DNA from: Giardia intestinalis
Taxonomy: Eukaryota
Assembly (NCBI GenBank): GCA_000002435.2
Contig: CM018792.1
Reading direction: 5' to 3' (one strand)
DNA: 64,000 nt
Below the pieces are notes generated by a model. It did no database searches and was not told where the DNA came from. It worked only from the letters and a program-made list of their open reading frames with translations. Position 1 is the first letter of the stretch. The number at the start of each line of letters is the position of its first letter. The translations under genes and the position numbers were made by a program. Below are positions 18,402-40,200 of the stretch, piece after piece.

Positions 18402-21400
18402 TCTGGCCCGGCCAACTTTTTGTAGGGTGTCATGCTATTGGTTACGTGGGCTCGAGTCCCCGGGCCGGCCCGGCCTGCGCAGGAGGGCGAGCGCGACCCA
18501 GCCCCGTTCCTACATGCTGCTCTGCAGTCTGCTGCCGTTACTTGTTGCTTTTACTTGCCCTGAGGCCACGGTGGTTCTCTAGAGCAATCGCTTGCATCCA
18601 TCCGTAACCCTAGGCGTTACGACTTGAAAGGCCATGTCACCGCATAGCTTTTATGAAGGACATTTACTAGCCATGGCAGATGGAGGTCGTCGCTTCTGGA
18701 AGCCCTGGTGCATGCCAGGCTTAGAAGACGTTGACTTCACTGGCTGCAGGAGCCCCCACCTACATGTGACAGCTTGAAGTAGCACCACTTCGAGGACAGG
18801 CGAGATCCACAGCTCGAGAGGACCTGGCAACAGAGAGCAGACTCAGGCATAGCCACAAACAACCCATCGATCCAGATGGATGAGAGCAGACACCCAATTG
18901 GCAAGGCGTTGGCTAGTCTATGTAGAAGCGCATCCTCCAACGCAGGCTCTGACACACAAAGTCTAAGGCAGACCATTGGTACACAGCAGACGGGCAGAAG
19001 CCTGCTTCGTAGTGTGTGGAGGCTTTGATGAGGTAATCGCAGGCTTGATGAAGGCTGGGACCTGTAGCTCTAACAGAGGGCTTCCCAGCTTTGGAATACT
19101 CACGATCACTATAAAGTTAATACAGTGAGTTGTCTGTAGTAACAAGTCTGCGGAGATAAGAGCAAGGTTCTATCAAACTAGTTAGAAATTAGTGGATCCT
19201 AGTGTGAACTCGCAGTATAGGGACTTGCAGAAGGCACCGCGTTCTATTCATCTGAGTAAGACGGCCAACTAAGTAGAGCCGTAGTGCAAAAACCACGAGG
19301 CCAAGGGCTCCTCCATAGCCTAGAAGCTAACATCACAAGAGTCACACTGGCTGCGGAGTGCTTTCCGATCCCCTGAGGCTTAGCGGCATGGCTTCGTTCC
19401 CTAGTATGGCCAGACAGGCTTGAGACATGAGATACTCTGTCTGCTGCAAAGCACACCTTCTGGCAGCGACTCTGGTCTATCGGGTAACTCTCGCATAGAG
19501 GAGGCAGATGGCTCTGAAGCGCCACCGCTCGCCTGATAACTCTAGATCGTAGCAGAGGAAGCTGTTTATGAGAGTGTACCCCTAGTGTGTAGATCCGCGT
19601 TTTCGTGCGACGTGAGAAGACGTTTCTGGGTTGATCTGTCATGCCTCCATCTGCTCTAGCAAAATGTAACCCAGCGTATGCACTAGTGATCTATGTCGCC
19701 ATGGCAGCCATAGTTAACTAGCCAACGAGACAATCGCTAGAGGAACCCTTGGACACTTATGAGCAGAGGCGCAGTCTGAGAGCAGTCCTCTGGTCACCAA
19801 ATGATGGAGGGGCAGATGTAGTGTTGCTCCATACAATCACACTCTCTCACTTTAGTAGCTATGTGGGCAGCCCCGGTCTCGTGAGGTCTGTGGATAAGCT
19901 GCTTCACCCCATAAAGCATCCAAAATTACTACAGGTGACCCCTGCAAAGTCTTACTGCGGGAGGCCATGCTCCACTAGAGACGTGGCGCTGGAAACACAT
20001 TAGCTGATGGGAGCTCCCCTCTGGCGTTCTTAGGGGCGGCGTCTGTCTACAATAGCTCTACACCCACTGCCTGTCTATGGCCCAACTGTATCTTATTAAA
20101 ATCCTGTCTCCACTGAACGGCTGATTCGAGGGTGATTGCCGTTACCAAGATGATACCTTACATTGACTTCTAAGAGCTGTCTTTGCATATGTTGCGCTGC
20201 TTAGTACTGCACTCAAACGAAGTTTGCTATCGTTTCGCAGCTATTGTGGATTGGAAGAACAGTTAGCATTCTCAGTAGTTCATGTGGTAATTGGAAGCCA
20301 GGGAAGTCTAAGTTGAGTGAGAAGGCTTGAGGAGGGAGTAGCAGCCCTTATACTCCTCTGCTGGATGATGCAGAGAACTGGCTCGTTCCTTAGCGTCGAT
20401 AGTTCTTCAGAATGCACGTTTCTTTGTTTAAGACCTGCATGCTTCGGATTGTCCTCTCTTGCCAGCAAAGCAGTCACTTTCCTGTGTGTCTCCTTCAGGC
20501 ACATGCCCATCTATGGTGGTGCTTCCTGTCTCCTCTCTGGAGAGGCATAACCGTCCCAATCCAGACACCTTGCTCTCAGCACACACCTCGTATCCAGCAG
20601 AGGCCAGGTGCTCGTCGACCATATCCCGTGAGCATCAGCGCTGTGCCACTATGTTACTTCCTGTCCCTCTTGAGAGGCGTATTCTGACCATCCCAGTGTC
20701 TCTATGATAGGGGAGCTGTGGATCTGGAGGTGATTGTTGCTTTCTGGCCCTCTCTGCTGTCCAGTAGACTGCAAAGGCGCCCTTCGGGAGTCGGTCCCCC
20801 AACCCTCTGTTCCCTCGGGGAAGTGGTCCTTGGATAGCGCCACTTGGATGATTCTCGAAGCCTCACTGCACGGGTGCTGCTTCTAAGAACTCCTGGAGCC
20901 TCCCTACAGAGTCGCCCAATGGCGCAAGTCTTACCCATTGTCAGCGGAGGTCTCGGCTCCCAAGGCGCAGCTCGGGGACAATACGTTTGGCCCACGTCAG
21001 CGCCACTTCCTGGCAAGGGCATGCGGAAGATCTACTTCCTCTTGTAGATCCATCATTGGTATCGAGAGCACTGCGCCTGCTATCCCCGTTGGAAGTGTCG
21101 GTAGACGGTGCCCCGTATCTGTCCCATTGAAGAGTTGGAGGTCTGCTAAGGACAGCGAAGAGGATCCCATCAGGGCTGTGATCATATACCCGTCATTATG
21201 GCAACCATAGTGTAGATAAGACAACTGTCTGGGCCCTGCAACTCCCGGGGTAGAACGCCAGGGGCGTAGCTGATTCAAGCTAGTGAGAGCTACCCTTGTC
21301 ATAGCAGGCTTAGAAAGTAGGGAGCGAGTGACGTACCTGGTGTCCATCCACGCACGCATGCAGCCTGGAAGCTGTGCTCAGAGCACCGAGGCCTGCAGGG

Positions 21401-24400
21401 GTGTGGCATCCGAACAGGCCCGACAGTTATGACTGCTTCTGAGAACAGCCAGCATGACTGGATGAGGACATAAGAACTTACGGAGACCCTCACAGTCTTG
21501 ATGTCTGGGAGAACGCGGGGGCTGATCACTCTGAAATTGTCCATCTCATGAGCTGGTTTCCGATAGCAGGCATAACAAGGAAGTGACCCCTAATTATACA
21601 CAATCTCATGCCAGCCCATCGCAGCCTAGAGCATCCTTGTCTGGCCTGCCAGTCCATCCATGACGTCAGTAGATGTGTCAGCATTCCATATCATCGGCCA
21701 CTTTGCTGCTGCACAGTCAGAGTACTGCCCGTGGCATTGCTTGCTGATGCTCTGCATAGGGCCCTGTTCCCGTGGCAGTGACAGGTGAGCCTCTCTGCAG
21801 ATGCAGATCTAATGATATGGTTCCTCTTGGACCTTCCACCTCTGCTTCTGTCTAGTATCTCACACAATATGAAGTGGCCAGTGGCTGTTATTGGATCCTT
21901 CAACATAGTTATTACACATGTATGTGCCCATCAAGACTACCATATAGGGTCACACAAGCCGAGAGCTCTGTCAGGCAGTTATTGGACTCGATGTCAAGAT
22001 GGCAGGAGGACAACACTCCCAGTGGTTGCTGAAGTATGAAGCGTTATATAGATCGTATAGCACACCAGCGGCAGTACGACGGTGGAGGGCATGCCTGGAG
22101 GTAGGTGGCACCTACAGCAAGCTGTATACTATCGTTGTCAGTACAATGGGCATAGTGGATACTGGACCCACGCTTTGGTAGCCTCGATTAGAGCAATTGC
22201 ACAGCGAAGGAGCAGGGCGTAGGGGCATGGAAACCAACCGGTCGAGCAACGTGTACATGTACGGGCACGGTTATAAGTCTCGCCCACACTAGTGGGTGGT
22301 GCTCTGCCTCGATGTGGACTCAGCGGGCTGGCTCTCATATCTATGACAGGGAGCAGGGCACCGTGCTGATCATGCGGTGAGAGGCCTTCATGCGGGCCTT
22401 TAACTAGCCTAGGCAGCGCTTAGAAGCGGCCAGCCCTCTCGTACCACGTCTCCTCTCCAAATAGGACTGAAGGCGCCCAAGGTGCCCTTCCAGAGTCTTG
22501 GTATCATGGAGCCCGTGCTAGGTAGGAAAGTTCTATATTACATGGCATGTGAGCTGCTAGGATGTATAAACACTTGCGTGGTTGTAGCGACACGTCCCCA
22601 CCAGCAAGTGTCAGAGTACATCGGTGGACAGGTGCATATTAAGTCAGGCACTCTGTGTGCGATCATGCATCACAGCTCTCGTAACGGGCTACGGGCGACC
22701 TGAGGACTAGTACTCTATGGCAACGCAATGTGAGGCGGTGAGCCTAAGGCAATCGCCGGATCGATGGCTTCAACGCGGCATCCAACAAGGTGCAGCAGGG
22801 CATCGAGCCAGCTGAGCATTGAACCAGGCCCTGGATAGGAGCTAAGAGCTCCTGTGCATGGCTGGGCTGCTCTCTAGATGGGAAAGGATGCACGTCGAGC
22901 TGGTCAGGTGCGATGCTGTAAGGTATCCACAGCTGTATCGATGCATCTGGTAAGTCCACACTGGACTCCGGGAAGCACGCTGCCGGACAAGCCGAGGAGG
23001 CTCGAGGGATGATGGCGCCGTCTTGTTATCGCTATGCAGTGCTCCGTGGACATGTATACAAACCAGCATCTCCTGGTAGCCGAGGAGGGGGCAGAGCTAG
23101 GAGACGGCGAGTGTCCCATTATGAACGACTCCAGGCGCTACCCGATCACTCCTTGGAAGGGCATATGCCTCGGCTAGGTTGCATCACATCCAGAGTAGAA
23201 GAGGAAGCTGTACTGTCCTATTCGTTTCTCAGGACAATGTGCGAATAGAAAGCGGCCCAGCGACTGACACTCTGCACCGTCCTCCTCATCCGCGGCCTGA
23301 GCAGCCAGATGCCAGGCTCGATATGTAGGACGGAAGCTGCGAAGAATAAACTCATCACGGGGCCGATTGTCTGACATCAAAAAATCCAAAGGGACGGTAG
23401 CGCCCACTGTCTCCTGGGAGAGCACATCATGCACAGTACCAGCCGTGCCAGCCTTGGCTTCTTAGGGGAGTAACCTGGGGACGTCCTGTACTAGCCTCGA
23501 CCTGTGAGGCGTTACGACCTGTGAATAGCACAAAAGAAGGCAACTGGATGTACAGACAGTGCATTGTGTTCGTGGAAGTATATCGCAACTTCTAGGTGTA
23601 TACAGCGGCACTAAGCCGGGCATCTCAACTGGCCTGCATTGGCGACCTGCTTGCCATCGTGTTTGCTGTGATGAGAGGCTGTGTCCGTCCAACAGATTGA
23701 ACAGGTATTGCACTTGCTTCTCTGGTGATGCATGCATGGTCATATGTAGCTCTGGTAGGTAGCGTGGATACTATGATAGCTAAGCTGTCTGCCATCAGTA
23801 GAGAATAGCAGCTGATCGCGCCAGAGACTCTTCCAGGTAAGCCTTCGGTCTTCGTGCCTGCTTCCCCACTAACTATAGTAATAACTGTATATCCAGAACA
23901 ATGCCATGAAACGCTCCACTGCCTTTCAGAGTGAGACATGGACCTGCGTATAGGGCTAGAAATAGAACTCTGTACACCAACTGTTATGCGCCTGGCGTGA
24001 TGTCAGGCTTAGACCGCGGCACGATCTCTGCGTGCCTATGTGCTCGCGTGCATGCTCACTGCTATGTTGGACAGTGCAGCAAGGAGGTTGGCCTCTGAGT
24101 GCACCCACTCTACAGTGACTAGTCCTTGGTTGCACGTCTCAACGGAGGACGGTGCTACTTGGATGTGCAAAAGACTATCTGTGCACGGTGGCTCCTGGAG
24201 AGCTGGTTCGCACAAAAAAGGTAGAGGCGACCAACAGACCAGGGAGGTAAGATCAGCGCTAGAGAGTCTAGTTATAAATCTGGATTGCAACGAGGACACT
24301 TGTAATGCCTTTCTGGCCTCCGAACGTAGAAAGACTGCAAGGCCTATAAATAGATCGGAGGCTACTTTTTGATTTTGTGCATTTGTAGCGGCGTAATATT

Positions 24401-27180
24401 TATTGGGATCCAGCCTCGTCTGAAGCTGGGGAAATTCACTTTCTCTCCATATACAGGCGAGGATCTATTGTAGAGGCATACTGTGCAGGCCGGTACCAGT
24501 CGGCGTGGTTGCTGTCCACAAATGTCTCACTTACGTTCTCCCACAACAGATGAATCGCCAAAGTGCCTCTTGGATTGCGTGATGTCCTACAGTGCATCTC
24601 TGCCTTCGACCAAAGGTTGCTACACACACTGCGTAGTTTGGATTGCTCATCATCCAGGGTGATCTGATCAGCTCTCGTCCTCTGCGTGTCTATCTTGTGT
24701 GGCCACTGCTGATGGTCTTTCCAGATCAGCGGGTGCCTCTATCGGTCCCACAGAGACACGCATCATGTAGGTGACTATTGCAGACCAGAGTCCTATCTAC
24801 CAAGGAAAAGGGTCAATCTGTTTACCGCGTAGGCATTCATTGTGTGCCCTATATAGTCCAGCAGGTCTTGTGCTCTTTAACATCTTCTCAGAGCCCTGTC
24901 TGGAGCCCGCGTGCATATCGTTACTACCAAACACTTAGCAGCTTCGACTGACCACCTAGGACGTCAAATCCCTTGCGCTGCACAGTGGGTATGCTCAGCG
25001 TGAGAGATACATAGTCAGCATCAGCCTTCTCAGCTCATCGTTTGGGTAATACTACTGTTGTTTTTCATCCAGTTAGCTGGCGCGAGGACCCAGCTCATGG
25101 CCAGCAAACCGAGAAAGGCCATTCCGGGAGGTCTTCAAGCGCGCTAGTACCTCGTTAGTGGGTAGCTAACAATGACCTTGGCGCATATCTCTGCCAAGAC
25201 ACGGCCTCTTTGAGCAGAGCATAAAAGTGGACCCTGTCATCCTGCGGCCCTGCTGATTTTTCGGACAGCAGGGATCGGAGCAGCTCAGATTAGCATTAGT
25301 CACCTCTGGGTCTCCATCTGTCTTCGTTGCCTGAGATGTGCTTGATCCTGTAGACTGAGAAGGGCGCTATACTGTACTCGTGTCTGCATGCCTCAGCCAG
25401 GCAGGGCTACCCTCTTGGAGACTACGCTGAGGTACCACACATCCCGAGGAACCTGTATGGAGTACCACAGCCCAAGGGCACCTTTGTCTGTCGAACGCAA
25501 GTTGTAGTTATGGCTTCATAAGTGCAGCCTTTCTTAAAATAACTGATCAACTACAGAATTCGTCTACTCACCCAGAGCCACCTGATGGAGGATGATATCA
25601 GTCTCGTCAGTAGTCTATAACGTACACCAGTCGAATCTCACAGATGAACAAGGGCTACCCAGCCCGCAGCACTAGACATTAGCAGATATCCTTCACGACA
25701 AGGGAGATGAGCGACTTGTAGACCACGGTAGTCGCCTGCCCATTGAAAATTTTTCAGTCACTGACCTAGGCCAGCTTATTACAAGACTCTTGGCGAGTTG
25801 TATCAAAAATGCATGCTTATGGGACTCCCAGTTCAAGGTGTATGCTGTCGTACCCTACTATTTTTCACACCAGCCTGTAGACATCGGTTCTTTTGGCCTC
25901 TAGTGGAGCCAAGGAAATCGCAGGATATGACGCCCTCAGTAGGGCTTTATCTGACTCTTATAGCTATATGACAGGAGGATGCCGGCCTTCTATGCATTAT
26001 GTAACGCGTGCTAAGCAACACCAGTACAACCCCTACAGTGTGGCATGATTCGCGAGTCAAAAGGTAGGACGCTTGGGCTGATTGGTATGTCTCCTCGGGA
26101 CCAACTACAGCTCGGACCAAAGGTCATGAGCGAATGCTATTCGATTCTCTTATCAGCAGATGGGGGTCAACTGCTCTAACACCCACAGGAGGCCACAAAA
26201 GGTACTGGACCAGGCATCCGGCCAATTGCTGGCAAATCAACACAACCTCCTTGGATCTCCATTCTTTCCTCACAGGCATCCACATGTAGGAAGCTCTGGG
26301 GGCCTAGAGCCCTACACTAACAGGCTCAAGATATTGCACTCCTAGGTGCTTCCATTAGTGGTGGTAGCGACAGCACTAGGATGATCCAGAGGGGAGGATA
26401 AGAGTCCTGATCCATCAGTTCAGGGGTGGCACAGTTTGGGCAGGGCTTCCTCCTTGTCTAAATTTGGGAGTGCTGGCCTCGCCCTCTGACCATCTGACAC
26501 CTTATCATGCGATGGGGAACCTTAATAGTATCCACTACAAAAAGGCAGAAATAGCGTCATGCATACTCAACAATCCATAGCGTCTCATAGGCTAATCTAC
26601 ACTGATTCACACTTCCACGAACCCTAGCGATCACTGTAGCCTTTTCTCGGGATCTCGCACCGGACTGTCCTTGAGTGCAGTTCCCTCACGATAGCCAGGA
26701 GTCGCAGGCATAATCCAAAGGAGTGAAGATGCCACAGAGGCGGAGAGGAGGTCATCGGCGCACGGGGGTCCGCAAGGGCCTGGCCCGCGCAGGGGAGGCA
26801 CAGGGGGCTGACTCATCAGGGACGCAGATACGCCAGGAGAGGAGCCAGCAATGAACCCACGGCACAGTGAGGGCATCCGAGCCGTCCTTTGATTGGCCTC
26901 AAAGTAGGGAGGCGGCGAGCGTGTAGAGAGGTCTCACCACCTATTTTTGGATTTTCTGTTTCCCTGCGTGTTGTGCAGGGGGCATAGGGTTCAGACCCAG
27001 AGAGCTCGCAGGGGGCTGTATGCAATAGATGTGCTTAGTATTCGATGAGCTTCTATGTCCTAAGCAGAGGTATCGTAGGAGACGAATCTCTTTGGAGTAA
27101 TTAGCACAGTACATAGTAAGTCAGGTCTTTAGTCTTAAGTATCTTATTCTTGCTCACGCGGTAAGCTGAGAAGGACCTCA

Positions 27181-29064
27181 ATGTTGTTGGTAGCTTTCTA
27201 TTTTGTGCTGAGTGCTCTCGCGGCAGCATGCAAGCAAGCACAAAATTGTGCAAATGAAAGATGTGAAATGGTTGGCGAAACAGAAATATGCACAGAATGT
27301 AAGGACCAAGGAAATGTCCCCGTTAACGGAGTATGTATGCCGAAAGATAATGACGCCGTTACAACTGCTGGTTGCAAAAAGAATGGAGGCGCTGATTTAG
27401 GAGCAGAAGACAAGGTATGTGGACAATGCGACGGGGTTCACTTCCTCTATAAGGGTGGTTGCTATAGCACCGCCGATGCGACCGGGCAGAAGTTATGCAC
27501 CGATGCCGCGGAGGGAGTGTGCTCAGCGGCCGCAGTGGGGTACTTCATTCCACCGGGGGCACAGAAGACAGACCAGTCTGTTATCTTGTGTGGTGATGTC
27601 ACTGAGATAACACTGACCAATGGCAAAAAGTATAAAGGAGTTCAGCATTGTACAGTATGCACTGCTCCTGAAGCAGCAGAGTCTACTGCTAAGCCTGCAG
27701 TGTGCACAGCTTGTGACGAAGGATTCTTTGCCGCATCTGAGGGAACATGCACAGCTTGTGCTGACAACAATAATTGCGCTAAGTGTGATGCAGGAGCAGA
27801 TAAATGTACGAAGTGCAAAGCAACCGCTGCCAATAAATATTTTAAAGATAGTGGCGATGGAACGGGCACATGTGTCAATGAACAGACCTGCAAAGAACAA
27901 AGTACCCATTTTCCAAAAGATGATCCCAATAATGGCAACAAATGCTTATCTTGTAGTGATGATAAAAGTGGTGGAATAGCAGACTGCAAAACATGCACTC
28001 CAAAGGAGAATTCCGAAGGCCCAATTCTCATTACATGCTCTGCTTGTGCAACAGATACCAACAAACCCAATGTTGCCGGGACAAAGTGCATTGCATGCAC
28101 TGTAAAAGATTGCAAGAAGTGTAATGACGATGGCACGTGTGCAGAGTGCGACAATACTAGGAAGCTCACCCCGACAAAGGAGTGCGTAGATAAGTGCGAA
28201 AAGCTTGAGGGATACTTTGACGGAGATGATGGTACTTGCAGGGCGTGCAACTCTGTCTGTAAAACGTGTAACGGTGAAGATCCATATCAGTGCACCGGCT
28301 GTCCTGCAAAGAAGGTGCTTAAATACACCGTTGAAAGCACTCCGGACAGTGGTAGCACCTGTGTAGACGAGTGCACAACAAACACAAATGGCTGTGCAGA
28401 ATGCGGCGCAACTATCGGAGAAGCTAAGTACTGCTCTAAATGCAGCGACGCCAAGCAAGCACCGCTGAATGGTAACTGCACTGCTAGTGTTAGAGCAGCC
28501 GCATCATGTACACAAATAGAAAACGGCATTTGTAAGAAATGCGCTACTAACTATTTCCTTTTCGAGGGCGGCTGCTACGAAACCACCAGGCAGCCTGGGA
28601 TGCAGATATGTAAGGATGCTGCAGGGAACGACGGCAAGTGCAAGACATGTGCCAATAACCTACCCTCCAACATCGATACCGGGGCCTGTCCTTCATGCCC
28701 AGCAGGTTGCGCCACGTGTACGGCAGCAGGGCAGACGTACACATGTCAGACTTGTCTTGCTGGATACTATCTTGATTCTACTAAAAACTTGTGCATAAAA
28801 TGTACTGAGAGTAGCGGTAATATCCAAGGCGTTACTAATTGCGTTAGCTGTAACCCGCCAGCTGGTAATAGTGGCCCTGTCACCTGCTATGTAAAGAAGG
28901 ATGGCACTAGCGATGGCGGTAACGATAACAGCACCGGTGGTAGTACAAACAAGAGCGGCCTTAGCACAGGCGCCATTGCAGGCATCTCTGTTGCTGTCAT
29001 CGTCGTTGTGGGTGGGCTCATAGGGTTCCTCTGCTGGTGGTTCATCTGTAGGGGGAAGGCGTAG
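27181..29064 (+). CDS. Variant-specific surface protein (VSP), copy A
   Basis: ATG at 27181 in the context cctcaATGTTG. It has an N-terminal signal peptide (MLLVAFYFVLSALAA). The 627-aa protein contains dozens of CXXC motifs, two GGCY motifs (YKGGCYSTAD; FEGGCYETT), a C-terminal TM segment (GAIAGISVAVIVVVGGLIGFLCWWFI), and the invariant Giardia VSP tail CRGKA followed by the stop. AGTAAAC lies 15 nt after the stop. Confidence 0.93.
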   Translation: MLLVAFYFVLSALAAACKQAQNCANERCEMVGETEICTECKDQGNVPVNGVCMPKDNDAVTTAGCKKNGGADLGAEDKVCGQCDGVHFLYKGGCYSTADATGQKLCTDAAEGVCSAAAVGYFIPPGAQKTDQSVILCGDVTEITLTNGKKYKGVQHCTVCTAPEAAESTAKPAVCTACDEGFFAASEGTCTACADNNNCAKCDAGADKCTKCKATAANKYFKDSGDGTGTCVNEQTCKEQSTHFPKDDPNNGNKCLSCSDDKSGGIADCKTCTPKENSEGPILITCSACATDTNKPNVAGTKCIACTVKDCKKCNDDGTCAECDNTRKLTPTKECVDKCEKLEGYFDGDDGTCRACNSVCKTCNGEDPYQCTGCPAKKVLKYTVESTPDSGSTCVDECTTNTNGCAECGATIGEAKYCSKCSDAKQAPLNGNCTASVRAAASCTQIENGICKKCATNYFLFEGGCYETTRQPGMQICKDAAGNDGKCKTCANNLPSNIDTGACPSCPAGCATCTAAGQTYTCQTCLAGYYLDSTKNLCIKCTESSGNIQGVTNCVSCNPPAGNSGPVTCYVKKDGTSDGGNDNSTGGSTNKSGLSTGAIAGISVAVIVVVGGLIGFLCWWFICRGKA

Positions 29065-29078
29065 ATGTGTACTTAGAT

Positions 29079-29085: not shown

Positions 29086-29615
29086 GCGTTACTTACGTAG
29101 CTTGTGTAGATATGCTGATAGGTCCACCTGCAGTGCGTCCAGAAGTCTCACGAGTAAACTTTCGCTTAATTCCTGGCCAATCCAGAGACGAAGCCTGATC
29201 GTAGACAGCATGCTAGGGGCTTCCCTCTACTAGTGCATCCAGGACCCGGTATATTCATCGGTCGCTTCGCAGGGATGTGCTCGGTTTGGGTATCCACGTC
29301 GGTCCTTTAGGGGTTCAGGTCTTCTCGTGGACCCTCTGCTCTATCAGTGGCGCCTCTCCTTGGTCTCTCTTCATAGCGGGTGAAGCCCGGGTCGCTGTCT
29401 TTTTTAGATGCCCCGTCTGTCGGGGGCTGCTACCGGGCTCTCCACTGGCCGCCCCTCGGTGTCCGGCTGTGGCTCGGGCAGCGCTCTACAGTCGCGGTCA
29501 CGTAGGTCCCAGTGGGCCAGCTGGTGGGGAGGCGGGGTTGCTGGGGCGGTGGGACTGGTGGGGGCTGAGGTGGGGGTGCTTGTATGTGCCTCTGGGTCCG
29601 GTGGGTCATTGGGGT

Positions 29616-31274
29616 GATCCCCGCTCTGTTTGCCAAGGTGGCTGTGTCTGATCCCCAGCCTTCGTTGCACTCCCGAGACACAGGCACCGACGATCGTGTC
29701 GTGTCCCCCTGACTGAGCGCCTCCCTTGGCCCCTTGTCTCGGGCAGTACTGCCTCTCTGTCTGGCTGGTGCGTGAGGGTTGAGGCAAGCCATCGCAGCCT
29801 CTCCTGCTACTCGCTGATGCTCTGTGCGGGTCTGCTGAGCCCCTGGTGTGCCCTGTCCGGTGCCTCGACGGTAGTTCGCCTGGGACCAGCAGGGGCATGG
29901 ATGACCCTGTGGATGGGATGGGGTTCTCTCGTGCCTCTAGTGTGATGACTCAGAAGACTGGCATGGTGGGGCACCGGGTGGCTGGAGAGTCCCCGTGGTC
30001 AGCTGTGCTGCTCCTGGTGGGTCCTCGTTGTGGAGCACTGTGTGTTGTTCATAGGCAGAGGTGAGCCTCCTTAGTCTCAAGATGCTCACAGCAGAGAGGA
30101 GCACGCTGAGGGTCACCCATACCTCACCTGCTGTGCCCTCGGGGAGTTCCCGATGTGATTCACTAGGACCTTGCCACCTCCTCGTGGCCCTGATGACCCC
30201 TCGGGGAGAGTCGGGGTGTCCTATGCCGAGGGGCGTGCACCCTCCTGCATGAGCTGGGACCCACTGCACTGCCTCCAAGGAGGTCTGCTATGAGAGGAAG
30301 TGAATGATCGACAGCCCCTCAGAGTGCAGTGGATGGTGCTCGTGGTCGTCTCTGTGATCGGGCATCACTCTGATGGTCAGTCCTGTGCCTTTGTGGTGCT
30401 CAGAGGTCACCTGTGCTCCATCGCCTGCTGGACAGCCGGGCCTCTTGTGGCGTCCGAAGGCCTCCTCACTCCTCTGGCTGCTACTCCCTCTGGTCATCAA
30501 TGAAGACAGTCGAGACCAGCGGAGTCTCGGTGAGTCGTGCCTGCCTGGGTATCATTGGGGCTGGCAGCTGTCAGGGCTCTGCCACTGCTCACCTGCCTGG
30601 AGTGTGCCTCCCTTGGGCCTGCTCTGCTGTGCTGCGTGAGTCCTCTGGCTTCCTATCATACCCTGACTGTGAGGGTGACTCCATCTGGCCTTCTGATGCC
30701 CCTGTGGATGAGCATGGCAGCTGTCTGGCTGGGGATCTCTGGTGCCCGTGTCTGTTGCTGCCTCTCGGGTGCTCGGGTGGTTGCCTGGCGCTCTCGTATG
30801 GGGGCACAGTCAGCGTGTCCCGAGCAGACTCCAGTCCTCTCTGGGTCTACACAGTCTGTTCGTGTGTGGATGGTCCTCCTGGACTCATGTCCATCTGTGT
30901 GCACTGTCACTCAGCCTCGAGAGCAGGCCAGTGCAGTCATCAAGGGTCGCTGTCAGAGGGAGTCGTCTGTCACTACATCGCTCGGGCAGCCCTGCAGATC
31001 AGGCTGGTTGCTGTGCACCCTCATCTCTCGTGGCAGGGCTGTTTGACTCCCCTTGGCTATCCTCTCTGTCCCGGGGTGCACGGCTCCTTCGGGTGGCTGA
31101 CAGGGTAGTGGCCTCCGGTGAGTCTGCACTGGGAGGCACCGAGAAGCGAGGGCAGCTAGGCTGGCACCACTCTCCGGCTCCTGGGGTGCTGTCTGGATGG
31201 AGGCACTCACAGACCACGAGTCCACAGAGGGGTGAGTCACAGATGGACAGCCCCCAGTCACCACAGCTGCGATC
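29616..31274. other. Unique, non-palindromic central spacer of the inverted repeat: A-poor (plus strand), GC-rich, low-complexity block
   Basis: There are no mirror ORFs here, and reverse-complement comparison across the symmetry centre (30443/30444) shows no identity. The plus strand is strikingly A-depleted and rich in ctg/gtg/tgg/cct, so it gives long spurious ORFs in all three plus-strand frames (231, 215 and 169 aa). The same composition continues leftwards into the inner 340 bp of the left arm (29277-29615). Confidence 0.7.
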
Positions 31275-34200
31275 ATCCCAGTCCACCGGACCCAGAGGCA
31301 CATACAAGCACCCCCACCTCAGCCCCCACCAGTCCCACCGCCCCAGCAACCCCGCCTCCCCACCAGCTGGCCCACTGGGACCTACGTGACCGCGACTGTA
31401 GAGCGCTGCCCGAGCCACAGCCGGACACCGAGGGGCGGCCAGTGGAGAGCCCGGTAGCAGCCCCCGACAGACGGGGCATCTAAAAAAGACAGCGACCCGG
31501 GCTTCACCCGCTATGAAGAGAGACCAAGGAGAGGCGCCACTGATAGAGCAGAGGGTCCACGAGAAGACCTGAACCCCTAAAGGACCGACGTGGATACCCA
31601 AACCGAGCACATCCCTGCGAAGCGACCGATGAATATACCGGGTCCTGGATGCACTAGTAGAGGGAAGCCCCTAGCATGCTGTCTACGATCAGGCTTCGTC
31701 TCTGGATTGGCCAGGAATTAAGCGAAAGTTTACTCGTGAGACTTCTGGACGCACTGCAGGTGGACCTATCAGCATATCTACACAAGCTACGTAAGTAACG
31801 CGTTTACTATCTAAGTACACATCTACGCCTTCCCCCTACAGATGAACCACCAGCAGAGGAACCCTATGAGCCCACCCACAACGACGATGACAGCAACAGA
31901 GATGCCTGCAATGGCGCCTGTGCTAAGGCCGCTCTTGTTTGTACTACCACCGGTGCTGTTATCGTTACCGCCATCGCTAGTGCCATCCTTCTTTACATAG
32001 CAGGTGACAGGGCCACTATTACCAGCTGGCGGGTTACAGCTAACGCAATTAGTAACGCCTTGGATATTACCGCTACTCTCAGTACATTTTATGCACAAGT
32101 TTTTAGTAGAATCAAGATAGTATCCAGCAAGACAAGTCTGACATGTGTACGTCTGCCCTGCTGCCGTACACGTGGCGCAACCTGCTGGGCATGAAGGACA
32201 GGCCCCGGTATCGATGTTGGAGGGTAGGTTATTGGCACATGTCTTGCACTTGCCGTCGTTCCCTGCAGCATCCTTACATATCTGCATCCCAGGCTGCCTG
32301 GTGGTTTCGTAGCAGCCGCCCTCGAAAAGGAAATAGTTAGTAGCGCATTTCTTACAAATGCCGTTTTCTATTTGTGTACATGATGCGGCTGCTCTAACAC
32401 TAGCAGTGCAGTTACCATTCAGCGGTGCTTGCTTGGCGTCGCTGCATTTAGAGCAGTACTTAGCTTCTCCGATAGTTGCGCCGCATTCTGCACAGCCATT
32501 TGTGTTTGTTGTGCACTCGTCTACACAGGTGCTACCACTGTCCGGAGTGCTTTCAACGGTGTATTTAAGCACCTTCTTTGCAGGACAGCCGGTGCACTGA
32601 TATGGATCTTCACCGTTACACGTTTTACAGACAGAGTTGCACGCCCTGCAAGTACCATCATCTCCGTCAAAGTATCCCTCAAGCTTTTCGCACTTATCTA
32701 CGCACTCCTTTGTCGGGGTGAGCTTCCTAGTATTGTCGCACTCTGCACACGTGCCATCGTCATTACACTTCTTGCAATCTTTTACAGTGCATGCAATGCA
32801 CTTTGTCCCGGCAACATTGGGTTTGTTGGTATCTGTTGCACAAGCAGAGCATGTAATGAGAATTGGGCCTTCGGAATTCTCCTTTGGAGTGCATGTTTTG
32901 CAGTCTGCTATTCCACCACTTTTATCATCACTACAAGATAAGCATTTGTTGCCATTATTGGGATCATCTTTTGGAAAATGGGTACTTTGTTCTTTGCAGG
33001 TCTGTTCATTGACACATGTGCCCGTTCCATCGCCACTATCTTTAAAATATTTATTGGCAGCGGTTGCTTTGCACTTCGTACATTTATCTGCTCCTGCATC
33101 ACACTTAGCGCAATTATTGTTGTCAGCACAAGCTGTGCATGTTCCCTCAGATGCGGCAAAGAATCCTTCGTCACAAGCTGTGCACACTGCAGGCTTAGCA
33201 GTAGACTCTGCTGCTTCAGGAGCAGTGCATACTGTACAATGCTGAACTCCTTTATACTTTTTGCCATTGGTCAGTGTTATCTCAGTGACATCACCACACA
33301 AGATAACAGACTGGTCTGTCTTCTGTGCCCCCGGTGGAATGAAGTACCCCACTGCGGCCGCTGAGCACACTCCCTCCGCGGCATCGGTGCATAACTTCTG
33401 CCCGGTCGCATCGGCGGTGCTATAGCAACCACCCTTATAGAGGAAGTGAACCCCGTCGCATTGTCCACATACCTTGTCTTCTGCTCCTAAATCAGCGCCT
33501 CCATTCTTTTTGCAACCAGCAGTTGTAACGGCGTCATTATCTTTCGGCATACATACTCCGTTAACGGGGACATTTCCTTGGTCCTTACATTCTGTGCATA
33601 TTTCTGTTTCGCCAACCATTTCACATCTTTCATTTGCACAATTTTGTGCTTGCTTGCATGCTGCCGCGAGAGCACTCAGCACAAAATAGAAAGCTACCAA
33701 CAACATTGAGGTCCTTCTCAGCTTACCGCGTGAGCAAGAATAAGATACTTAAGACTAAAGACCTGACTTACTATGTACTGTGCTAATTACTCCAAAGAGA
33801 TTCGTCTCCTACGATACCTCTGCTTAGGACATAGAAGCTCATCGAATACTAAGCACATCTATTGCATACAGCCCCCTGCGAGCTCTCTGGGTCTGAACCC
33901 TATGCCCCCTGCACAACACGCAGGGAAACAGAAAATCCAAAAATAGGTGGTGAGACCTCTCTACACGCTCGCCGCCTCCCTACTTTGAGGCCAATCAAAG
34001 GACGGCTCGGATGCCCTCACTGTGCCGTGGGTTCATTGCTGGCTCCTCTCCTGGCGTATCTGCGTCCCTGATGAGTCAGCCCCCTGTGCCTCCCCTGCGC
34101 GGGCCAGGCCCTTGCGGACCCCCGTGCGCCGATGACCTCCTCTCCGCCTCTGTGGCATCTTCACTCCTTTGGATTATGCCTGCGACTCCTGGCTATCGTG

Positions 34201-37200
34201 AGGGAACTGCACTCAAGGACAGTCCGGTGCGAGATCCCGAGAAAAGGCTACAGTGATCGCTAGGGTTCGTGGAAGTGTGAATCAGTGTAGATTAGCCTAT
34301 GAGACGCTATGGATTGTTGAGTATGCATGACGCTATTTCTGCCTTTTTGTAGTGGATACTATTAAGGTTCCCCATCGCATGATAAGGTGTCAGATGGTCA
34401 GAGGGCGAGGCCAGCACTCCCAAATTTAGACAAGGAGGAAGCCCTGCCCAAACTGTGCCACCCCTGAACTGATGGATCAGGACTCTTATCCTCCCCTCTG
34501 GATCATCCTAGTGCTGTCGCTACCACCACTAATGGAAGCACCTAGGAGTGCAATATCTTGAGCCTGTTAGTGTAGGGCTCTAGGCCCCCAGAGCTTCCTA
34601 CATGTGGATGCCTGTGAGGAAAGAATGGAGATCCAAGGAGGTTGTGTTGATTTGCCAGCAATTGGCCGGATGCCTGGTCCAGTACCTTTTGTGGCCTCCT
34701 GTGGGTGTTAGAGCAGTTGACCCCCATCTGCTGATAAGAGAATCGAATAGCATTCGCTCATGACCTTTGGTCCGAGCTGTAGTTGGTCCCGAGGAGACAT
34801 ACCAATCAGCCCAAGCGTCCTACCTTTTGACTCGCGAATCATGCCACACTGTAGGGGTTGTACTGGTGTTGCTTAGCACGCGTTACATAATGCATAGAAG
34901 GCCGGCATCCTCCTGTCATATAGCTATAAGAGTCAGATAAAGCCCTACTGAGGGCGTCATATCCTGCGATTTCCTTGGCTCCACTAGAGGCCAAAAGAAC
35001 CGATGTCTACAGGCTGGTGTGAAAAATAGTAGGGTACGACAGCATACACCTTGAACTGGGAGTCCCATAAGCATGCATTTTTGATACAACTCGCCAAGAG
35101 TCTTGTAATAAGCTGGCCTAGGTCAGTGACTGAAAAATTTTCAATGGGCAGGCGACTACCGTGGTCTACAAGTCGCTCATCTCCCTTGTCGTGAAGGATA
35201 TCTGCTAATGTCTAGTGCTGCGGGCTGGGTAGCCCTTGTTCATCTGTGAGATTCGACTGGTGTACGTTATAGACTACTGACGAGACTGATATCATCCTCC
35301 ATCAGGTGGCTCTGGGTGAGTAGACGAATTCTGTAGTTGATCAGTTATTTTAAGAAAGGCTGCACTTATGAAGCCATAACTACAACTTGCGTTCGACAGA
35401 CAAAGGTGCCCTTGGGCTGTGGTACTCCATACAGGTTCCTCGGGATGTGTGGTACCTCAGCGTAGTCTCCAAGAGGGTAGCCCTGCCTGGCTGAGGCATG
35501 CAGACACGAGTACAGTATAGCGCCCTTCTCAGTCTACAGGATCAAGCACATCTCAGGCAACGAAGACAGATGGAGACCCAGAGGTGACTAATGCTAATCT
35601 GAGCTGCTCCGATCCCTGCTGTCCGAAAAATCAGCAGGGCCGCAGGATGACAGGGTCCACTTTTATGCTCTGCTCAAAGAGGCCGTGTCTTGGCAGAGAT
35701 ATGCGCCAAGGTCATTGTTAGCTACCCACTAACGAGGTACTAGCGCGCTTGAAGACCTCCCGGAATGGCCTTTCTCGGTTTGCTGGCCATGAGCTGGGTC
35801 CTCGCGCCAGCTAACTGGATGAAAAACAACAGTAGTATTACCCAAACGATGAGCTGAGAAGGCTGATGCTGACTATGTATCTCTCACGCTGAGCATACCC
35901 ACTGTGCAGCGCAAGGGATTTGACGTCCTAGGTGGTCAGTCGAAGCTGCTAAGTGTTTGGTAGTAACGATATGCACGCGGGCTCCAGACAGGGCTCTGAG
36001 AAGATGTTAAAGAGCACAAGACCTGCTGGACTATATAGGGCACACAATGAATGCCTACGCGGTAAACAGATTGACCCTTTTCCTTGGTAGATAGGACTCT
36101 GGTCTGCAATAGTCACCTACATGATGCGTGTCTCTGTGGGACCGATAGAGGCACCCGCTGATCTGGAAAGACCATCAGCAGTGGCCACACAAGATAGACA
36201 CGCAGAGGACGAGAGCTGATCAGATCACCCTGGATGATGAGCAATCCAAACTACGCAGTGTGTGTAGCAACCTTTGGTCGAAGGCAGAGATGCACTGTAG
36301 GACATCACGCAATCCAAGAGGCACTTTGGCGATTCATCTGTTGTGGGAGAACGTAAGTGAGACATTTGTGGACAGCAACCACGCCGACTGGTACCGGCCT
36401 GCACAGTATGCCTCTACAATAGATCCTCGCCTGTATATGGAGAGAAAGTGAATTTCCCCAGCTTCAGACGAGGCTGGATCCCAATAAATATTACGCCGCT
36501 ACAAATGCACAAAATCAAAAAGTAGCCTCCGATCTATTTATAGGCCTTGCAGTCTTTCTACGTTCGGAGGCCAGAAAGGCATTACAAGTGTCCTCGTTGC
36601 AATCCAGATTTATAACTAGACTCTCTAGCGCTGATCTTACCTCCCTGGTCTGTTGGTCGCCTCTACCTTTTTTGTGCGAACCAGCTCTCCAGGAGCCACC
36701 GTGCACAGATAGTCTTTTGCACATCCAAGTAGCACCGTCCTCCGTTGAGACGTGCAACCAAGGACTAGTCACTGTAGAGTGGGTGCACTCAGAGGCCAAC
36801 CTCCTTGCTGCACTGTCCAACATAGCAGTGAGCATGCACGCGAGCACATAGGCACGCAGAGATCGTGCCGCGGTCTAAGCCTGACATCACGCCAGGCGCA
36901 TAACAGTTGGTGTACAGAGTTCTATTTCTAGCCCTATACGCAGGTCCATGTCTCACTCTGAAAGGCAGTGGAGCGTTTCATGGCATTGTTCTGGATATAC
37001 AGTTATTACTATAGTTAGTGGGGAAGCAGGCACGAAGACCGAAGGCTTACCTGGAAGAGTCTCTGGCGCGATCAGCTGCTATTCTCTACTGATGGCAGAC
37101 AGCTTAGCTATCATAGTATCCACGCTACCTACCAGAGCTACATATGACCATGCATGCATCACCAGAGAAGCAAGTGCAATACCTGTTCAATCTGTTGGAC

Positions 37201-40200
37201 GGACACAGCCTCTCATCACAGCAAACACGATGGCAAGCAGGTCGCCAATGCAGGCCAGTTGAGATGCCCGGCTTAGTGCCGCTGTATACACCTAGAAGTT
37301 GCGATATACTTCCACGAACACAATGCACTGTCTGTACATCCAGTTGCCTTCTTTTGTGCTATTCACAGGTCGTAACGCCTCACAGGTCGAGGCTAGTACA
37401 GGACGTCCCCAGGTTACTCCCCTAAGAAGCCAAGGCTGGCACGGCTGGTACTGTGCATGATGTGCTCTCCCAGGAGACAGTGGGCGCTACCGTCCCTTTG
37501 GATTTTTTGATGTCAGACAATCGGCCCCGTGATGAGTTTATTCTTCGCAGCTTCCGTCCTACATATCGAGCCTGGCATCTGGCTGCTCAGGCCGCGGATG
37601 AGGAGGACGGTGCAGAGTGTCAGTCGCTGGGCCGCTTTCTATTCGCACATTGTCCTGAGAAACGAATAGGACAGTACAGCTTCCTCTTCTACTCTGGATG
37701 TGATGCAACCTAGCCGAGGCATATGCCCTTCCAAGGAGTGATCGGGTAGCGCCTGGAGTCGTTCATAATGGGACACTCGCCGTCTCCTAGCTCTGCCCCC
37801 TCCTCGGCTACCAGGAGATGCTGGTTTGTATACATGTCCACGGAGCACTGCATAGCGATAACAAGACGGCGCCATCATCCCTCGAGCCTCCTCGGCTTGT
37901 CCGGCAGCGTGCTTCCCGGAGTCCAGTGTGGACTTACCAGATGCATCGATACAGCTGTGGATACCTTACAGCATCGCACCTGACCAGCTCGACGTGCATC
38001 CTTTCCCATCTAGAGAGCAGCCCAGCCATGCACAGGAGCTCTTAGCTCCTATCCAGGGCCTGGTTCAATGCTCAGCTGGCTCGATGCCCTGCTGCACCTT
38101 GTTGGATGCCGCGTTGAAGCCATCGATCCGGCGATTGCCTTAGGCTCACCGCCTCACATTGCGTTGCCATAGAGTACTAGTCCTCAGGTCGCCCGTAGCC
38201 CGTTACGAGAGCTGTGATGCATGATCGCACACAGAGTGCCTGACTTAATATGCACCTGTCCACCGATGTACTCTGACACTTGCTGGTGGGGACGTGTCGC
38301 TACAACCACGCAAGTGTTTATACATCCTAGCAGCTCACATGCCATGTAATATAGAACTTTCCTACCTAGCACGGGCTCCATGATACCAAGACTCTGGAAG
38401 GGCACCTTGGGCGCCTTCAGTCCTATTTGGAGAGGAGACGTGGTACGAGAGGGCTGGCCGCTTCTAAGCGCTGCCTAGGCTAGTTAAAGGCCCGCATGAA
38501 GGCCTCTCACCGCATGATCAGCACGGTGCCCTGCTCCCTGTCATAGATATGAGAGCCAGCCCGCTGAGTCCACATCGAGGCAGAGCACCACCCACTAGTG
38601 TGGGCGAGACTTATAACCGTGCCCGTACATGTACACGTTGCTCGACCGGTTGGTTTCCATGCCCCTACGCCCTGCTCCTTCGCTGTGCAATTGCTCTAAT
38701 CGAGGCTACCAAAGCGTGGGTCCAGTATCCACTATGCCCATTGTACTGACAACGATAGTATACAGCTTGCTGTAGGTGCCACCTACCTCCAGGCATGCCC
38801 TCCACCGTCGTACTGCCGCTGGTGTGCTATACGATCTATATAACGCTTCATACTTCAGCAACCACTGGGAGTGTTGTCCTCCTGCCATCTTGACATCGAG
38901 TCCAATAACTGCCTGACAGAGCTCTCGGCTTGTGTGACCCTATATGGTAGTCTTGATGGGCACATACATGTGTAATAACTATGTTGAAGGATCCAATAAC
39001 AGCCACTGGCCACTTCATATTGTGTGAGATACTAGACAGAAGCAGAGGTGGAAGGTCCAAGAGGAACCATATCATTAGATCTGCATCTGCAGAGAGGCTC
39101 ACCTGTCACTGCCACGGGAACAGGGCCCTATGCAGAGCATCAGCAAGCAATGCCACGGGCAGTACTCTGACTGTGCAGCAGCAAAGTGGCCGATGATATG
39201 GAATGCTGACACATCTACTGACGTCATGGATGGACTGGCAGGCCAGACAAGGATGCTCTAGGCTGCGATGGGCTGGCATGAGATTGTGTATAATTAGGGG
39301 TCACTTCCTTGTTATGCCTGCTATCGGAAACCAGCTCATGAGATGGACAATTTCAGAGTGATCAGCCCCCGCGTTCTCCCAGACATCAAGACTGTGAGGG
39401 TCTCCGTAAGTTCTTATGTCCTCATCCAGTCATGCTGGCTGTTCTCAGAAGCAGTCATAACTGTCGGGCCTGTTCGGATGCCACACCCCTGCAGGCCTCG
39501 GTGCTCTGAGCACAGCTTCCAGGCTGCATGCGTGCGTGGATGGACACCAGGTACGTCACTCGCTCCCTACTTTCTAAGCCTGCTATGACAAGGGTAGCTC
39601 TCACTAGCTTGAATCAGCTACGCCCCTGGCGTTCTACCCCGGGAGTTGCAGGGCCCAGACAGTTGTCTTATCTACACTATGGTTGCCATAATGACGGGTA
39701 TATGATCACAGCCCTGATGGGATCCTCTTCGCTGTCCTTAGCAGACCTCCAACTCTTCAATGGGACAGATACGGGGCACCGTCTACCGACACTTCCAACG
39801 GGGGTAGCAGGCGCAGTGCTCTCGATACCAATGATGGATCTACAAGAGGAAGTAGATCTTCCGCATGCCCTTGCCAGGAAGTGGCGCTGACGTGGGCCAA
39901 ACGTATTGTCCCCGAGCTGCGCCTTGGGAGCCGAGACCTCCGCTGACAATGGGTAAGACTTGCGCCATTGGGCGACTCTGTAGGGAGGCTCCAGGAGTTC
40001 TTAGAAGCAGCACCCGTGCAGTGAGGCTTCGAGAATCATCCAAGTGGCGCTATCCAAGGACCACTTCCCCGAGGGAACAGAGGGTTGGGGGACCGACTCC
40101 CGAAGGGCGCCTTTGCAGTCTACTGGACAGCAGAGAGGGCCAGAAAGCAACAATCACCTCCAGATCCACAGCTCCCCTATCATAGAGACACTGGGATGGT

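What the first reader, a model, noticed from the sequence alone, without database searches (positions are those of the whole stretch)
21083..39804. Arms are not perfectly identical (at least one substitution and one 3-bp indel), which argues for a real and not brand-new duplication
Mirrored ORFs differ at one residue (I versus V): left-arm minus-strand codon ata at plus 21081-21083 versus right-arm gta at 39804-39806. Near the inner edges there is a 3-bp indel (left ...ggtccggtggGTCATTggggtga versus right-arm reverse complement ...ggtccggtggACTgggatga). A fold-back assembly artifact or a very recent duplication would normally be 100% identical. A few differences over 11 kb (<0.1% divergence) fit a young duplication that is either slowly diverging or being homogenised by gene conversion between arms.
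Basis: seen in the sequence. Interest (0 to 1): 0.5.

Follow-up and report, generated by a model that had tools for sequence, protein, structure and literature searches.

The report
Known Giardia VSP palindrome, kept identical
This is the already catalogued tail-to-tail pair of identical surface-antigen (VSP) genes on Giardia WB chromosome 4, sitting in an 11-kb-armed palindrome whose arms differ at only two bases, and comparison with related Giardia suggests the palindrome is old and kept uniform by copying between its arms.

Summary
The window is Giardia intestinalis WB chromosome 4. Arms 18497-29604 and 31283-42390 (11,108 nt) flank a 1,678-nt spacer. An ungapped comparison gives three substitutions (18500, 19239, 21083). 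With gaps, 18500 belongs to a 27-nt edge indel, leaving two transitions in 11,104 nt (0.018%). The "3-bp indel" exists but sits exactly at the inner edge, followed by about 26 nt of decaying similarity.

Each arm holds 8.7 kb of apparently non-coding DNA plus one 627-aa VSP gene, arranged tail to tail. This is the published pair vsp20.1/20.2, GL50803_103992/d103992 (Adam 2010; Xu 2020), so it is not new. The "mirrored ORF" with the I/V difference is a chance ORF.

What this analysis adds is evidence of age:
- Both edges are frayed.
- A related lineage (8.7% diverged at fourfold sites) carries, on its left flank, sequence that WB keeps only beside its right arm.
- That lineage's contigs end at assembler k-mer distance past that point.
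- Assemblage E (P15) has the homologous non-coding DNA in an inverted repeat too (98.7% arm identity, 60-72% to WB).

This favours an old palindrome homogenised by arm-to-arm gene conversion over a young duplication. Whether the two substitutions are real arm differences needs reads.

The parts
18501..29604 (+). Left arm of the palindrome. The ungapped match starts at 18497; the uninterrupted identity starts at 18501.
   Evidence: It has only two internal differences from the right arm, at 19239 and 21083.
31283..42386 (-). Right arm of the palindrome, the reverse complement of the left arm. The ungapped match runs to 42390.
   Evidence: The mirror coordinate of left-arm position p is q = 60887 - p.
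29605..31282 (.). Unique spacer: 1,678 nt, 61.7% G+C, with no convincing gene. Its first ~26 nt on each side still show 69% mirror similarity after a 3-nt indel (the frayed inner edge).
   Evidence: Pfam gives nothing credible for the spacer ORFs. The spacer is 89.8% identical to the related lineage's contig L009.
27181..29064 (+). VSP gene, left copy (vsp20, GL50803_103992/d103992). It encodes 627 aa with 72 Cys, 25 CXXC motifs and 2 GGCY motifs, and ends ...CRGKA. The start context is CAATGTT, and AGTAAAC lies 15 nt after the stop codon.
   Evidence: Pfam VSP, E = 1.3e-89; 100% identical to the WB VSP P0001.
31823..33706 (-). VSP gene, right copy. It is identical in sequence to the left copy and lies tail to tail with it, 2,758 bp between the two ORFs.
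   Evidence: Matches Table 2 of Xu 2020 and Table 5 of Adam 2010.
18501..27180 (.). The 8.7-kb apparently non-coding part of the left arm (mirror 33707-42386). It is collinear with the P15 arm in four blocks at 60-72% identity. It has a better-conserved core at about 23661-24360.
19239..19239 (.). Arm difference 1: G on the left arm against A (reverse complement) at 41648. A transition.
21083..21083 (.). Arm difference 2: T on the left arm against C (reverse complement) at 39804. A transition.
18452..18500 (+). Frayed outer edge, left side. An 18-nt stretch, GTCCCCGGGCCGGCCCGG, matches the right side at 15 of 18 positions (hand count on the alignment). It is followed by 27 nt that are absent from the right arm. 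About 24 nt present in the relative and in the WB right flank are deleted here.
42387..42426 (-). Frayed outer edge, right side. The sequence GGAGCGGCCGTCCCTGCGGTCCTCAGGCCTGCCCGG matches the LEFT flank of the related lineage: 29 of 31 positions in the tested ungapped block, with 0 of 2,000 shuffles reaching that score. The match continues through CCCGG.
42454..42528 (-). tRNA-Asn(GUU), the first gene outside the right arm.
13819..18396 (+). The 1,525-aa Giardia-specific gene, the last gene before the left arm. Its mRNA is polyadenylated 12-13 nt after the stop codon.

Best explanation
The feature is the known tail-to-tail inverted pair of identical VSP genes vsp20.1/20.2 (GL50803_103992 and d103992) on chromosome 4 of Giardia intestinalis WB.

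In the long-read assembly the pair proves to be the inner part of a much larger palindrome. It has two 11.1-kb arms (8.7 kb of non-coding DNA, the VSP gene and 540 nt of 3' flank) around a 1.7-kb unique spacer. The palindrome fills the whole gene-poor island between a housekeeping-side gene and tRNA-Asn.

The palindrome is not young. It existed before WB split from a lineage that is about 9% diverged at neutral sites, and probably before assemblages A and E split. Its arms are kept almost identical (2 differences in 11,104 nt) by repeated arm-to-arm gene conversion: homologous repair of one arm using the other as template. Only the outermost tens of bases at each edge have been left to decay by substitutions and indels, presumably because conversion tracts rarely reach there.

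Shown: the anatomy, the identity of the pair, the frayed edges, the cross-lineage edge homology, and the P15 inverted repeat. Inferred: gene conversion as the homogenising process, and the ancestral presence of the palindrome.
For: Identity of the pair:
- A Giardia snoRNA, GlsR21, lies in the window.
- The VSP is 100% identical to a WB protein on a 2.76-Mb contig.
- 627 aa, 72 Cys and 25 CXXC match the vsp20.1 row for GL50803_103992, marked 'TTIPa', chr 4.
- The 2,758 bp between ORFs and 540 nt of 3' identity match the published tables.

Near-identity of the arms.

Frayed edges:
- Inner edge: a 3-nt indel, then 18 matches in 26 nt, then nothing.
- Outer edge: a 27-nt indel, then 15 matches in 18 nt, then a ~24-nt deletion in the left arm.

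Age:
- The related lineage's left flank (L012, L013, L015) carries a block that WB has only next to its right arm. It matches at 29 of 31 positions ungapped, and 0 of 2,000 shuffles reach that score.
- That lineage differs from WB by 2.4% over 14.8 kb of flank and by 8.7% at fourfold sites. It differs by 10-20% in the VSP region, 3' flank and spacer.
- Its 45-kb contigs end 30 nt (assembled at k = 31) or 141 nt (k = 141) after the last base that distinguishes the two copies. That is what a repeat boundary produces.

P15:
- The homologous, collinear non-coding DNA (60-72% identical to WB) is also an inverted repeat of at least 6.4 kb with 98.7% arm identity.
- The arm differences there are patchy: 2-kb stretches with 0-1 difference beside 500-nt patches with 22-26. 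That is the pattern expected from episodic conversion tracts.
Against: - No read-level data were available. The two substitutions could be allelic or polishing artefacts.
- Conversely, mid-arm identity could be inflated. Reads lying wholly inside an 11-kb arm cannot be assigned to one arm during polishing.
- The presence of the repeat in the related lineage is inferred from contig ends and one flank only. Its right flank and full arms were not seen.
- In P15 the VSP is single-copy and lies in the spacer, not in the arms. The P15 left flank (a Kre9_KNH gene) is not syntenic with the WB window. Independent inverted duplications in the two assemblages therefore cannot be excluded. WB alone has 14-19 such pairs, so formation may be recurrent.
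- The P15 contig comes from a 454 assembly and ends inside the right arm.
- A single recent whole-arm re-copying over an older, decayed palindrome would look the same as continuous conversion.
Confidence: 0.62

Rival explanations
1. The duplication is young. An inverted duplication of the VSP and its upstream region arose recently in the WB (AI) lineage, for example by replication template switching, and has simply not had time to diverge. P15 and the related lineage acquired theirs independently.
For: Divergence is only 0.018%. Adam et al. 2010 themselves suggested recent duplication. There are many such pairs in WB and in G. muris, so formation may be frequent. P15 has a different arrangement and different flanks.
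Against: The edge regions carry two indels and about 17-30% substitutions within tens of bases, while 11 kb of interior carries two substitutions. Sequence that WB has only at its right edge is found at the left edge of a lineage that is 8.7% diverged at neutral sites. That lineage's contigs break as at a repeat boundary.
Confidence: 0.2
2. The differences, or the degree of identity, are technical. Either the two substitutions are polishing errors or allelic variants of the tetraploid genome that were assigned arbitrarily to one arm, or real differences in the mid-arm were erased by multi-mapping reads. This concerns the numbers, not the existence of the palindrome, and is compatible with either evolutionary reading.
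For: The assembly was polished with Quiver and then corrected from Illumina pile-ups at 50% or more support. The same paper reports more allelic variation around VSPs. Both internal differences lie in the outer 2.6 kb, where reads anchored in the unique flank can tell the arms apart. RNA-seq contigs confirm only the left-flank-linked sequence up to 18791.
Against: There are no indels between the arms, and indels are the usual long-read error. The Sanger-era data also gave identical ORFs and the same 3' divergence point.
Confidence: 0.3
3. The inverted repeat is a fold-back assembly artefact.
For: Long-read assemblers can produce palindromic chimeras. Nothing else supports this reading.
Against: The spacer is 1.7 kb of unique sequence, and the two outer sides have different genes. 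The same pair geometry appears in an independent Sanger assembly. Optical-map-guided assembly found no misassemblies. Related contigs from other samples run from the arm into the same spacer.
Confidence: 0.02

Closest known systems
Identical inverted VSP gene pairs of Giardia intestinalis WB (vsp1267; the 14 pairs of Adam et al. 2010, PMC2996952; the 19 pairs of Xu et al. 2020, PMC7000408). Comparable pairs occur in G. muris (PMC7641422).
   Same: This is one of them: vsp20.1/20.2 = GL50803_103992/d103992, chr 4, tail to tail, 627 aa, 2,758 bp apart, 3' identity ending 540 nt past the stop codon.
   Different: The papers describe the ORF pair and a 3' divergence point. The 5' extent was left blank for tail-to-tail pairs. 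Here the repeat runs 8.7 kb upstream of each gene, to within about 100 nt of the flanking genes. The papers suggest recent duplication, whereas the comparisons here point to an old, homogenised structure.
Large palindromes maintained by arm-to-arm gene conversion, such as the human Y-chromosome ampliconic palindromes (arm identity about 99.97%; from my own knowledge, Rozen et al. 2003), and copy correction in plastid inverted repeats.
   Same: Kilobase-scale arms, a unique spacer, and arm identity (99.98%) far above the identity of the same sequence between lineages (60-89%).
   Different: The scale is much smaller, in a tetraploid asexual-like protist. Conversion is inferred here, not observed. 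The cargo is a surface-antigen gene.
Inverted duplications made by fold-back priming or replication template switching (MMBIR/FoSTeS type).
   Same: An inverted duplicate separated by a short unique spacer is the expected product and may be how the palindrome first arose.
   Different: There is no clean junction. Both edges are decayed, so the original junction microhomology cannot be read.

Membership tests
Giardia variant-specific surface protein (Pfam PF03302) | Profile match above the curated cut-off | tested here: met
   E = 1.3e-89, 301 bits against a cut-off of 31.4.
Giardia variant-specific surface protein (Pfam PF03302) | C-terminal transmembrane stretch followed by CRGKA; many CXXC motifs; GGCY motif; N-terminal signal-like hydrophobic stretch | tested here: met
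   The protein ends ...GGLIGFLCWWFICRGKA. It has 25 CXXC motifs, 72 Cys and 2 GGCY motifs, and starts MLLVAFYFVLSALAAA. No signal-peptide predictor was run.
Identical inverted VSP pair (Adam 2010 / Xu 2020) | Two identical ORFs in inverted orientation | tested here: met
   There is no arm difference between 21084 and 29604. The ORFs 27181-29064 (+) and 31823-33706 (-) are identical.
Identical inverted VSP pair (Adam 2010 / Xu 2020) | 2-4 kb of intervening DNA, with flank identity ending abruptly 139-729 nt from the coding region | tested here: met
   2,758 bp between the ORFs; identity ends 540 nt past the stop codon. 'Abrupt' needs softening: about 26 nt of decaying similarity follow.
Identical inverted VSP pair (Adam 2010 / Xu 2020) | Listed in the published catalogues | tested here: met
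   vsp20.1/20.2, GL50803_103992, TTIPa/TTIPb; chr 4 d103992/103992, -> <-, 627 aa, 2,758 bp.
Palindrome under concerted evolution (arm-to-arm gene conversion) | Arm-to-arm identity far higher than the identity of the same sequence between lineages | tested here: met
   99.98% within WB. The arm parts are 80-89% identical to the related lineage and 60-72% to P15. P15 arms are 98.7% identical to each other.
Palindrome under concerted evolution (arm-to-arm gene conversion) | The palindrome is present in the diverged lineages, so it predates their split | tested here: inconclusive
   The evidence is indirect. WB right-edge sequence is found on the relative's left flank. Contig ends fall at k-1 past that point. 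P15 has an inverted repeat, but with a different centre and flank. No complete second arm was seen in the relative.
Palindrome under concerted evolution (arm-to-arm gene conversion) | Observed conversion tracts or arm phylogeny grouping by genome | not testable with these tools
   This needs full arms from several isolates, or read-level data.
Recombinase-driven invertible DNA switch | Both orientations of the central segment present in a population; a dedicated recombinase | not tested
   No reads were available. No recombinase-like ORF was found in the arms or spacer. This is considered only as a speculative reading.
Fold-back assembly artefact | No independent support; no unique spacer or distinct flanks | tested here: not met
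   There is a unique 1,678-nt spacer, distinct flanks, independent Sanger-era detection, and related contigs crossing from arm into spacer.

The most novel reading that the evidence does not exclude
The palindrome may be a functional module of antigenic variation rather than a passive duplication. There are two possible forms.
(a) Read-through transcription from one VSP across the 1.7-kb spacer into the antisense of the other copy would give a perfect long hairpin RNA. That RNA would feed the Dicer/Argonaute pathway proposed to silence VSPs.
(b) Crossing-over between the arms flips the centre. In the P15 arrangement the centre contains the whole single VSP gene, so this would be an orientation switch for an antigen gene.
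The long-term maintenance of more than 8 kb of apparently non-coding arm, with a conserved ~700-nt core, would then reflect selection on the structure itself.
Probability: 0.07. Interest if true: 0.8.

Novelty: already known. Interest (0 to 1): 0.3.

Why it matters
VSP genes drive antigenic variation in a major human gut parasite. The identical inverted pairs have been called a 'cryptic observation' and were assumed to be recent duplications.

If the pairs are instead long-lived palindromes kept uniform by gene conversion, then their structure, including kilobases of non-coding arm, is being preserved. That makes a functional role testable, whether in VSP expression control, small-RNA production or recombination. 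It also matters practically. Such arms defeat short-read assembly and confound variant calling and heterozygosity estimates around VSP loci.

As a finding about this window it is modest. The object is already catalogued, and the two base differences alone prove little.

Tried and rejected
- **Independent support for the I/V variant.** I looked up both versions of the 120-aa ORF as called genes. Neither is on record.
- **The exact VSP, the junction ORF and another WB VSP.** None is on record. The WB long-read assembly is apparently not indexed, so other WB pairs could not be fetched.
- **A chimeric 1,586-aa query of ten arm and spacer ORFs against 5.8 billion proteins.** No hit.
- **Two scans of JGI metagenome contigs,** one with a conserved spacer block and one with a degenerate VSP 3' end. 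Both were empty.
- **Whether tail-to-tail pairs share a common spacer module.** The similar 2.4-3.2 kb spacings and ~500-nt 3' divergence points in Adam 2010 suggest they might. The one extra P15 VSP locus fetched (L017) has an ankyrin gene downstream and no similarity to the WB spacer. The question is untested for real pairs.
- **VSP pseudogene remnants in the 8.7-kb arm.** None found by tblastn with 120 VSPs. Pfam and Rfam also found nothing.
- **Whether the conserved core 23661-24360 is a decayed coding sequence.** Single-base gaps, in-frame stops in both genomes and no clear codon periodicity argue against it.
- **A generic gapped local alignment of the WB outer flanks against each other.** It was not significant on its own. 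The edge homology became clear only with the related lineage as a bridge.
- **The Logan contigs as DNA read support.** L001-L007, L014 and L016 turned out to be RNA-seq assemblies, with poly(A) tails and adapters. They say little about DNA junctions.


Full report
**What the window is.** Rfam finds the Giardia snoRNA GlsR21 at 8902-9012 and a tRNA-Asn at 42454-42528. The 627-aa ORF in each arm is 100% identical to a VSP of Giardia intestinalis WB (ATCC 50803) carried on a 2,761,001-bp contig. The window is therefore part of chromosome 4 of the WB long-read assembly.

**Checking the observation.** One inverted repeat dominates the window: arms 18497-29604 and 31283-42390 (11,108 nt), with 1,678 nt between them.
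- A base-by-base ungapped comparison gives three mismatches: 18500, 19239 and 21083. Their partners are 42387, 41648 and 39804.
After it, 18 of the next 26 positions still match, and then similarity stops.
- At the outer end, the 18500 mismatch disappears in a gapped alignment. WB's right arm lacks 27 nt that the left side has, and the uninterrupted arm begins at 18501.
- The interior therefore has two differences, both transitions, in 11,104 nt (0.018%).

**Anatomy.** Each arm consists of three parts.
- The first is 8.7 kb without any open frame longer than 148 codons, which is about the chance expectation. It has no VSP remnants, no Pfam domain and no Rfam family.
- The second is a 627-aa VSP gene, 27181-29064 on the plus strand and 31823-33706 on the minus strand.
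- The third is 540 nt of 3' flank.

The protein scores E = 1.3e-89 against Pfam VSP and ends in CRGKA. It has 72 Cys, 25 CXXC motifs and 2 GGCY motifs. The start context is CAATGTT, and AGTAAAC follows the stop codon by 15 nt. The genes are tail to tail, 2,758 bp apart. The spacer is G+C-rich (61.7%) and has no credible gene or internal structure. The 'mirrored ORF' with the I/V change lies in the non-coding part and is not on record as a called gene. The palindrome fills the space between a 1,525-aa Giardia-specific gene, whose stop codon ends at 18396, and tRNA-Asn. Ordinary genes lie beyond on both sides: topoisomerase, TTL, proteasome subunits, an LRR protein and a 5,288-aa ORF.

**It is already known.**
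- Adam et al. 2010 (PMC2996952) list 14 identical inverted VSP pairs in WB. Their Table 5 row for vsp 20 reads 3' divergence 541 nt and distance between ORFs 2,759 bp.
- Their Additional file 1 gives vsp20.1 = GL50803_103992, 'TTIPa', chromosome 4, start context CAATGTT, 627 aa, 72 Cys, 25 CXXC. This matches the window exactly.
- Xu et al. 2020 (PMC7000408), Table 2, lists chr 4, d103992/103992, '-> <-', 627 aa, 2,758 bp.
- These independent data also dispose of the fold-back-artefact idea.
- Neither paper gives the 5' extent, which is blank for tail-to-tail pairs in the 2010 table. The 2010 paper suggests the pairs are recent duplications and calls them a cryptic observation.

**Evidence on age: a related assemblage-A-like lineage.** The left-flank gene has a 99% identical counterpart in other samples. 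Contigs L012 (ENA, megahit k141, 45.5 kb) and L013 (Logan, k = 31, 45 kb) align to the window at 97.6-97.9% over 14.7 kb. Fourfold-degenerate sites in the 1,525-aa gene differ by 8.7%.
- Just past the gene, these contigs read GGAGCGG[T/C]CGTCCCTGCGGTCCTCGGGCCTGCCCGG.
- In WB that block exists only next to the right arm, as the reverse complement of about 42391-42426. It matches at 29 of 31 positions ungapped, and 0 of 2,000 shuffles reach that score.
- WB's left side has lost about 24 nt of the block, and WB's right side has lost the adjacent 27 nt.
- The ancestor of WB and this lineage therefore had the repeat on both sides, reaching about 65 nt further out than WB's present perfect arm. The edges have since decayed.
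- The contigs also end where a repeat boundary would end them: 30 nt (k-1) after the last copy-distinguishing base in L013 and L015, and 141 nt after it in the k141 contig.
- Three metagenome contigs with an 84% identical VSP run from the arm into the same spacer (L009-L011; L011 comes from the same sample as L012). Their identities to WB are 85.4% upstream, 88.6% in the VSP, 80.2% in the 3' flank and 89.8% in the spacer.
- Without homogenisation, arms as old as this split should differ by roughly 9% or more, not 0.018%.

**Evidence on age: assemblage E (P15).** The best P15 homologue (67% aa identity) lies on ACVC01000111.1.
- The DNA upstream of it is collinear with the WB arm in four blocks at 60-72% identity.
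- In P15 this DNA also forms an inverted repeat: arms 3461-9825 and 11973-18347 (the contig end), 98.7% identical, with 71 mismatches and 10 gap positions.
- The differences are patchy: 2 kb with 0-1 difference next to 500-nt patches with 22-26.
- Unexpectedly, the P15 VSP is single-copy and lies in the 2.1-kb centre. The WB 3' flank and spacer are absent.
- One deletion from a WB-like ancestor would give exactly this arrangement. It would run from about 56 nt past the left VSP stop codon to 176 nt upstream of the right VSP. Independent origin cannot be excluded.
- The P15 left flank (a Kre9_KNH gene) is not in the WB window.

**Interpretation.** The best reading is an old palindrome whose arms evolve in concert through arm-to-arm gene conversion (confidence about 0.6). 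The edges lie beyond the reach of conversion tracts and decay. A young duplication is the main rival (about 0.2).

A technical explanation for the two substitutions, or for an overstated mid-arm identity, cannot be excluded (about 0.3) and is compatible with either reading. The assembly was polished from reads that cannot be placed uniquely inside 11-kb arms. Both differences lie in the outer 2.6 kb, where flank-anchored reads can separate the arms. Two sites are too few for that clustering to be significant.

The RNA-seq contigs confirm only the left-flank-linked sequence to 18791.

**Verdict.** The object is a catalogued VSP inverted pair. The small addition here is that the repeat is 11 kb per arm and mostly non-coding, and that comparative evidence favours long-term homogenisation over recent origin.

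Noticed in passing
L008 (P15 contig ACVC01000111.1) 3461-18347: In assemblage E the homologous locus has a single VSP gene (10001-11917) in the 2.1-kb centre of an inverted repeat of at least 6.4 kb. Recombination between the arms would flip the whole gene. The arm differences are patchy. The contig ends inside the right arm, so the outer boundary is unknown.
   Followed up: partly
window 23661-24360 (mirror 36527-37226): A ~700-nt core of the otherwise fast-evolving non-coding arm is about 72% identical to P15 and almost gap-free, while the surrounding DNA is barely alignable. It has in-frame stops in both genomes and no clear codon periodicity. It could be a conserved non-coding element.
   Followed up: partly
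window 18397-18410; L004, L014, L016: RNA-seq-derived contigs end in poly(A) 12-13 nt after the stop codon of the 1,525-aa gene, just after AGTGAAC. This gives an experimentally supported polyadenylation site. Other RNA-seq contigs (L001, L005, L006) read through into the left arm as far as 18791.
   Followed up: partly
window 26427-30831 compared with L009: Between WB and the related lineage, the non-coding arm parts are 15-20% diverged. The single-copy spacer is 10% diverged and fourfold sites of the flanking gene 8.7%. The arms seem to evolve about twice as fast as the neutral benchmark.
   Followed up: no
window 13819-18396: The 1,525-aa flanking protein has no Pfam domain. Only two homologue clusters were found in 5.8 billion proteins: a 99% relative, and a 58% relative named DHA2_153245. 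It has a Cys-rich region towards the C-terminus, a hydrophobic stretch at the C-terminus, and a hydrophobic N-terminus.
   Followed up: no
window 42568-58434: There is a 5,288-aa ORF with no Pfam match, immediately after tRNA-Asn on the right flank.
   Followed up: no
window 8902-9012 (-): H/ACA snoRNA GlsR21, 133 bits. This is what first identified the organism.
   Followed up: yes
L017 1-233 compared with L008 9600-9809 and 11967-12198: A ~210-230-nt segment from the innermost part of the P15 arms recurs at 93-94% identity upstream of a paralogous P15 VSP (52% aa identity) on another contig. A VSP-upstream element appears to travel with VSP genes.
   Followed up: no
window 29521-29563 (mirror 31324-31366): A G-rich 17-nt tandem repeat, 2.5 copies, lies just inside the inner end of each arm. 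The same region is length-variable in the related lineage's contigs.
   Followed up: no
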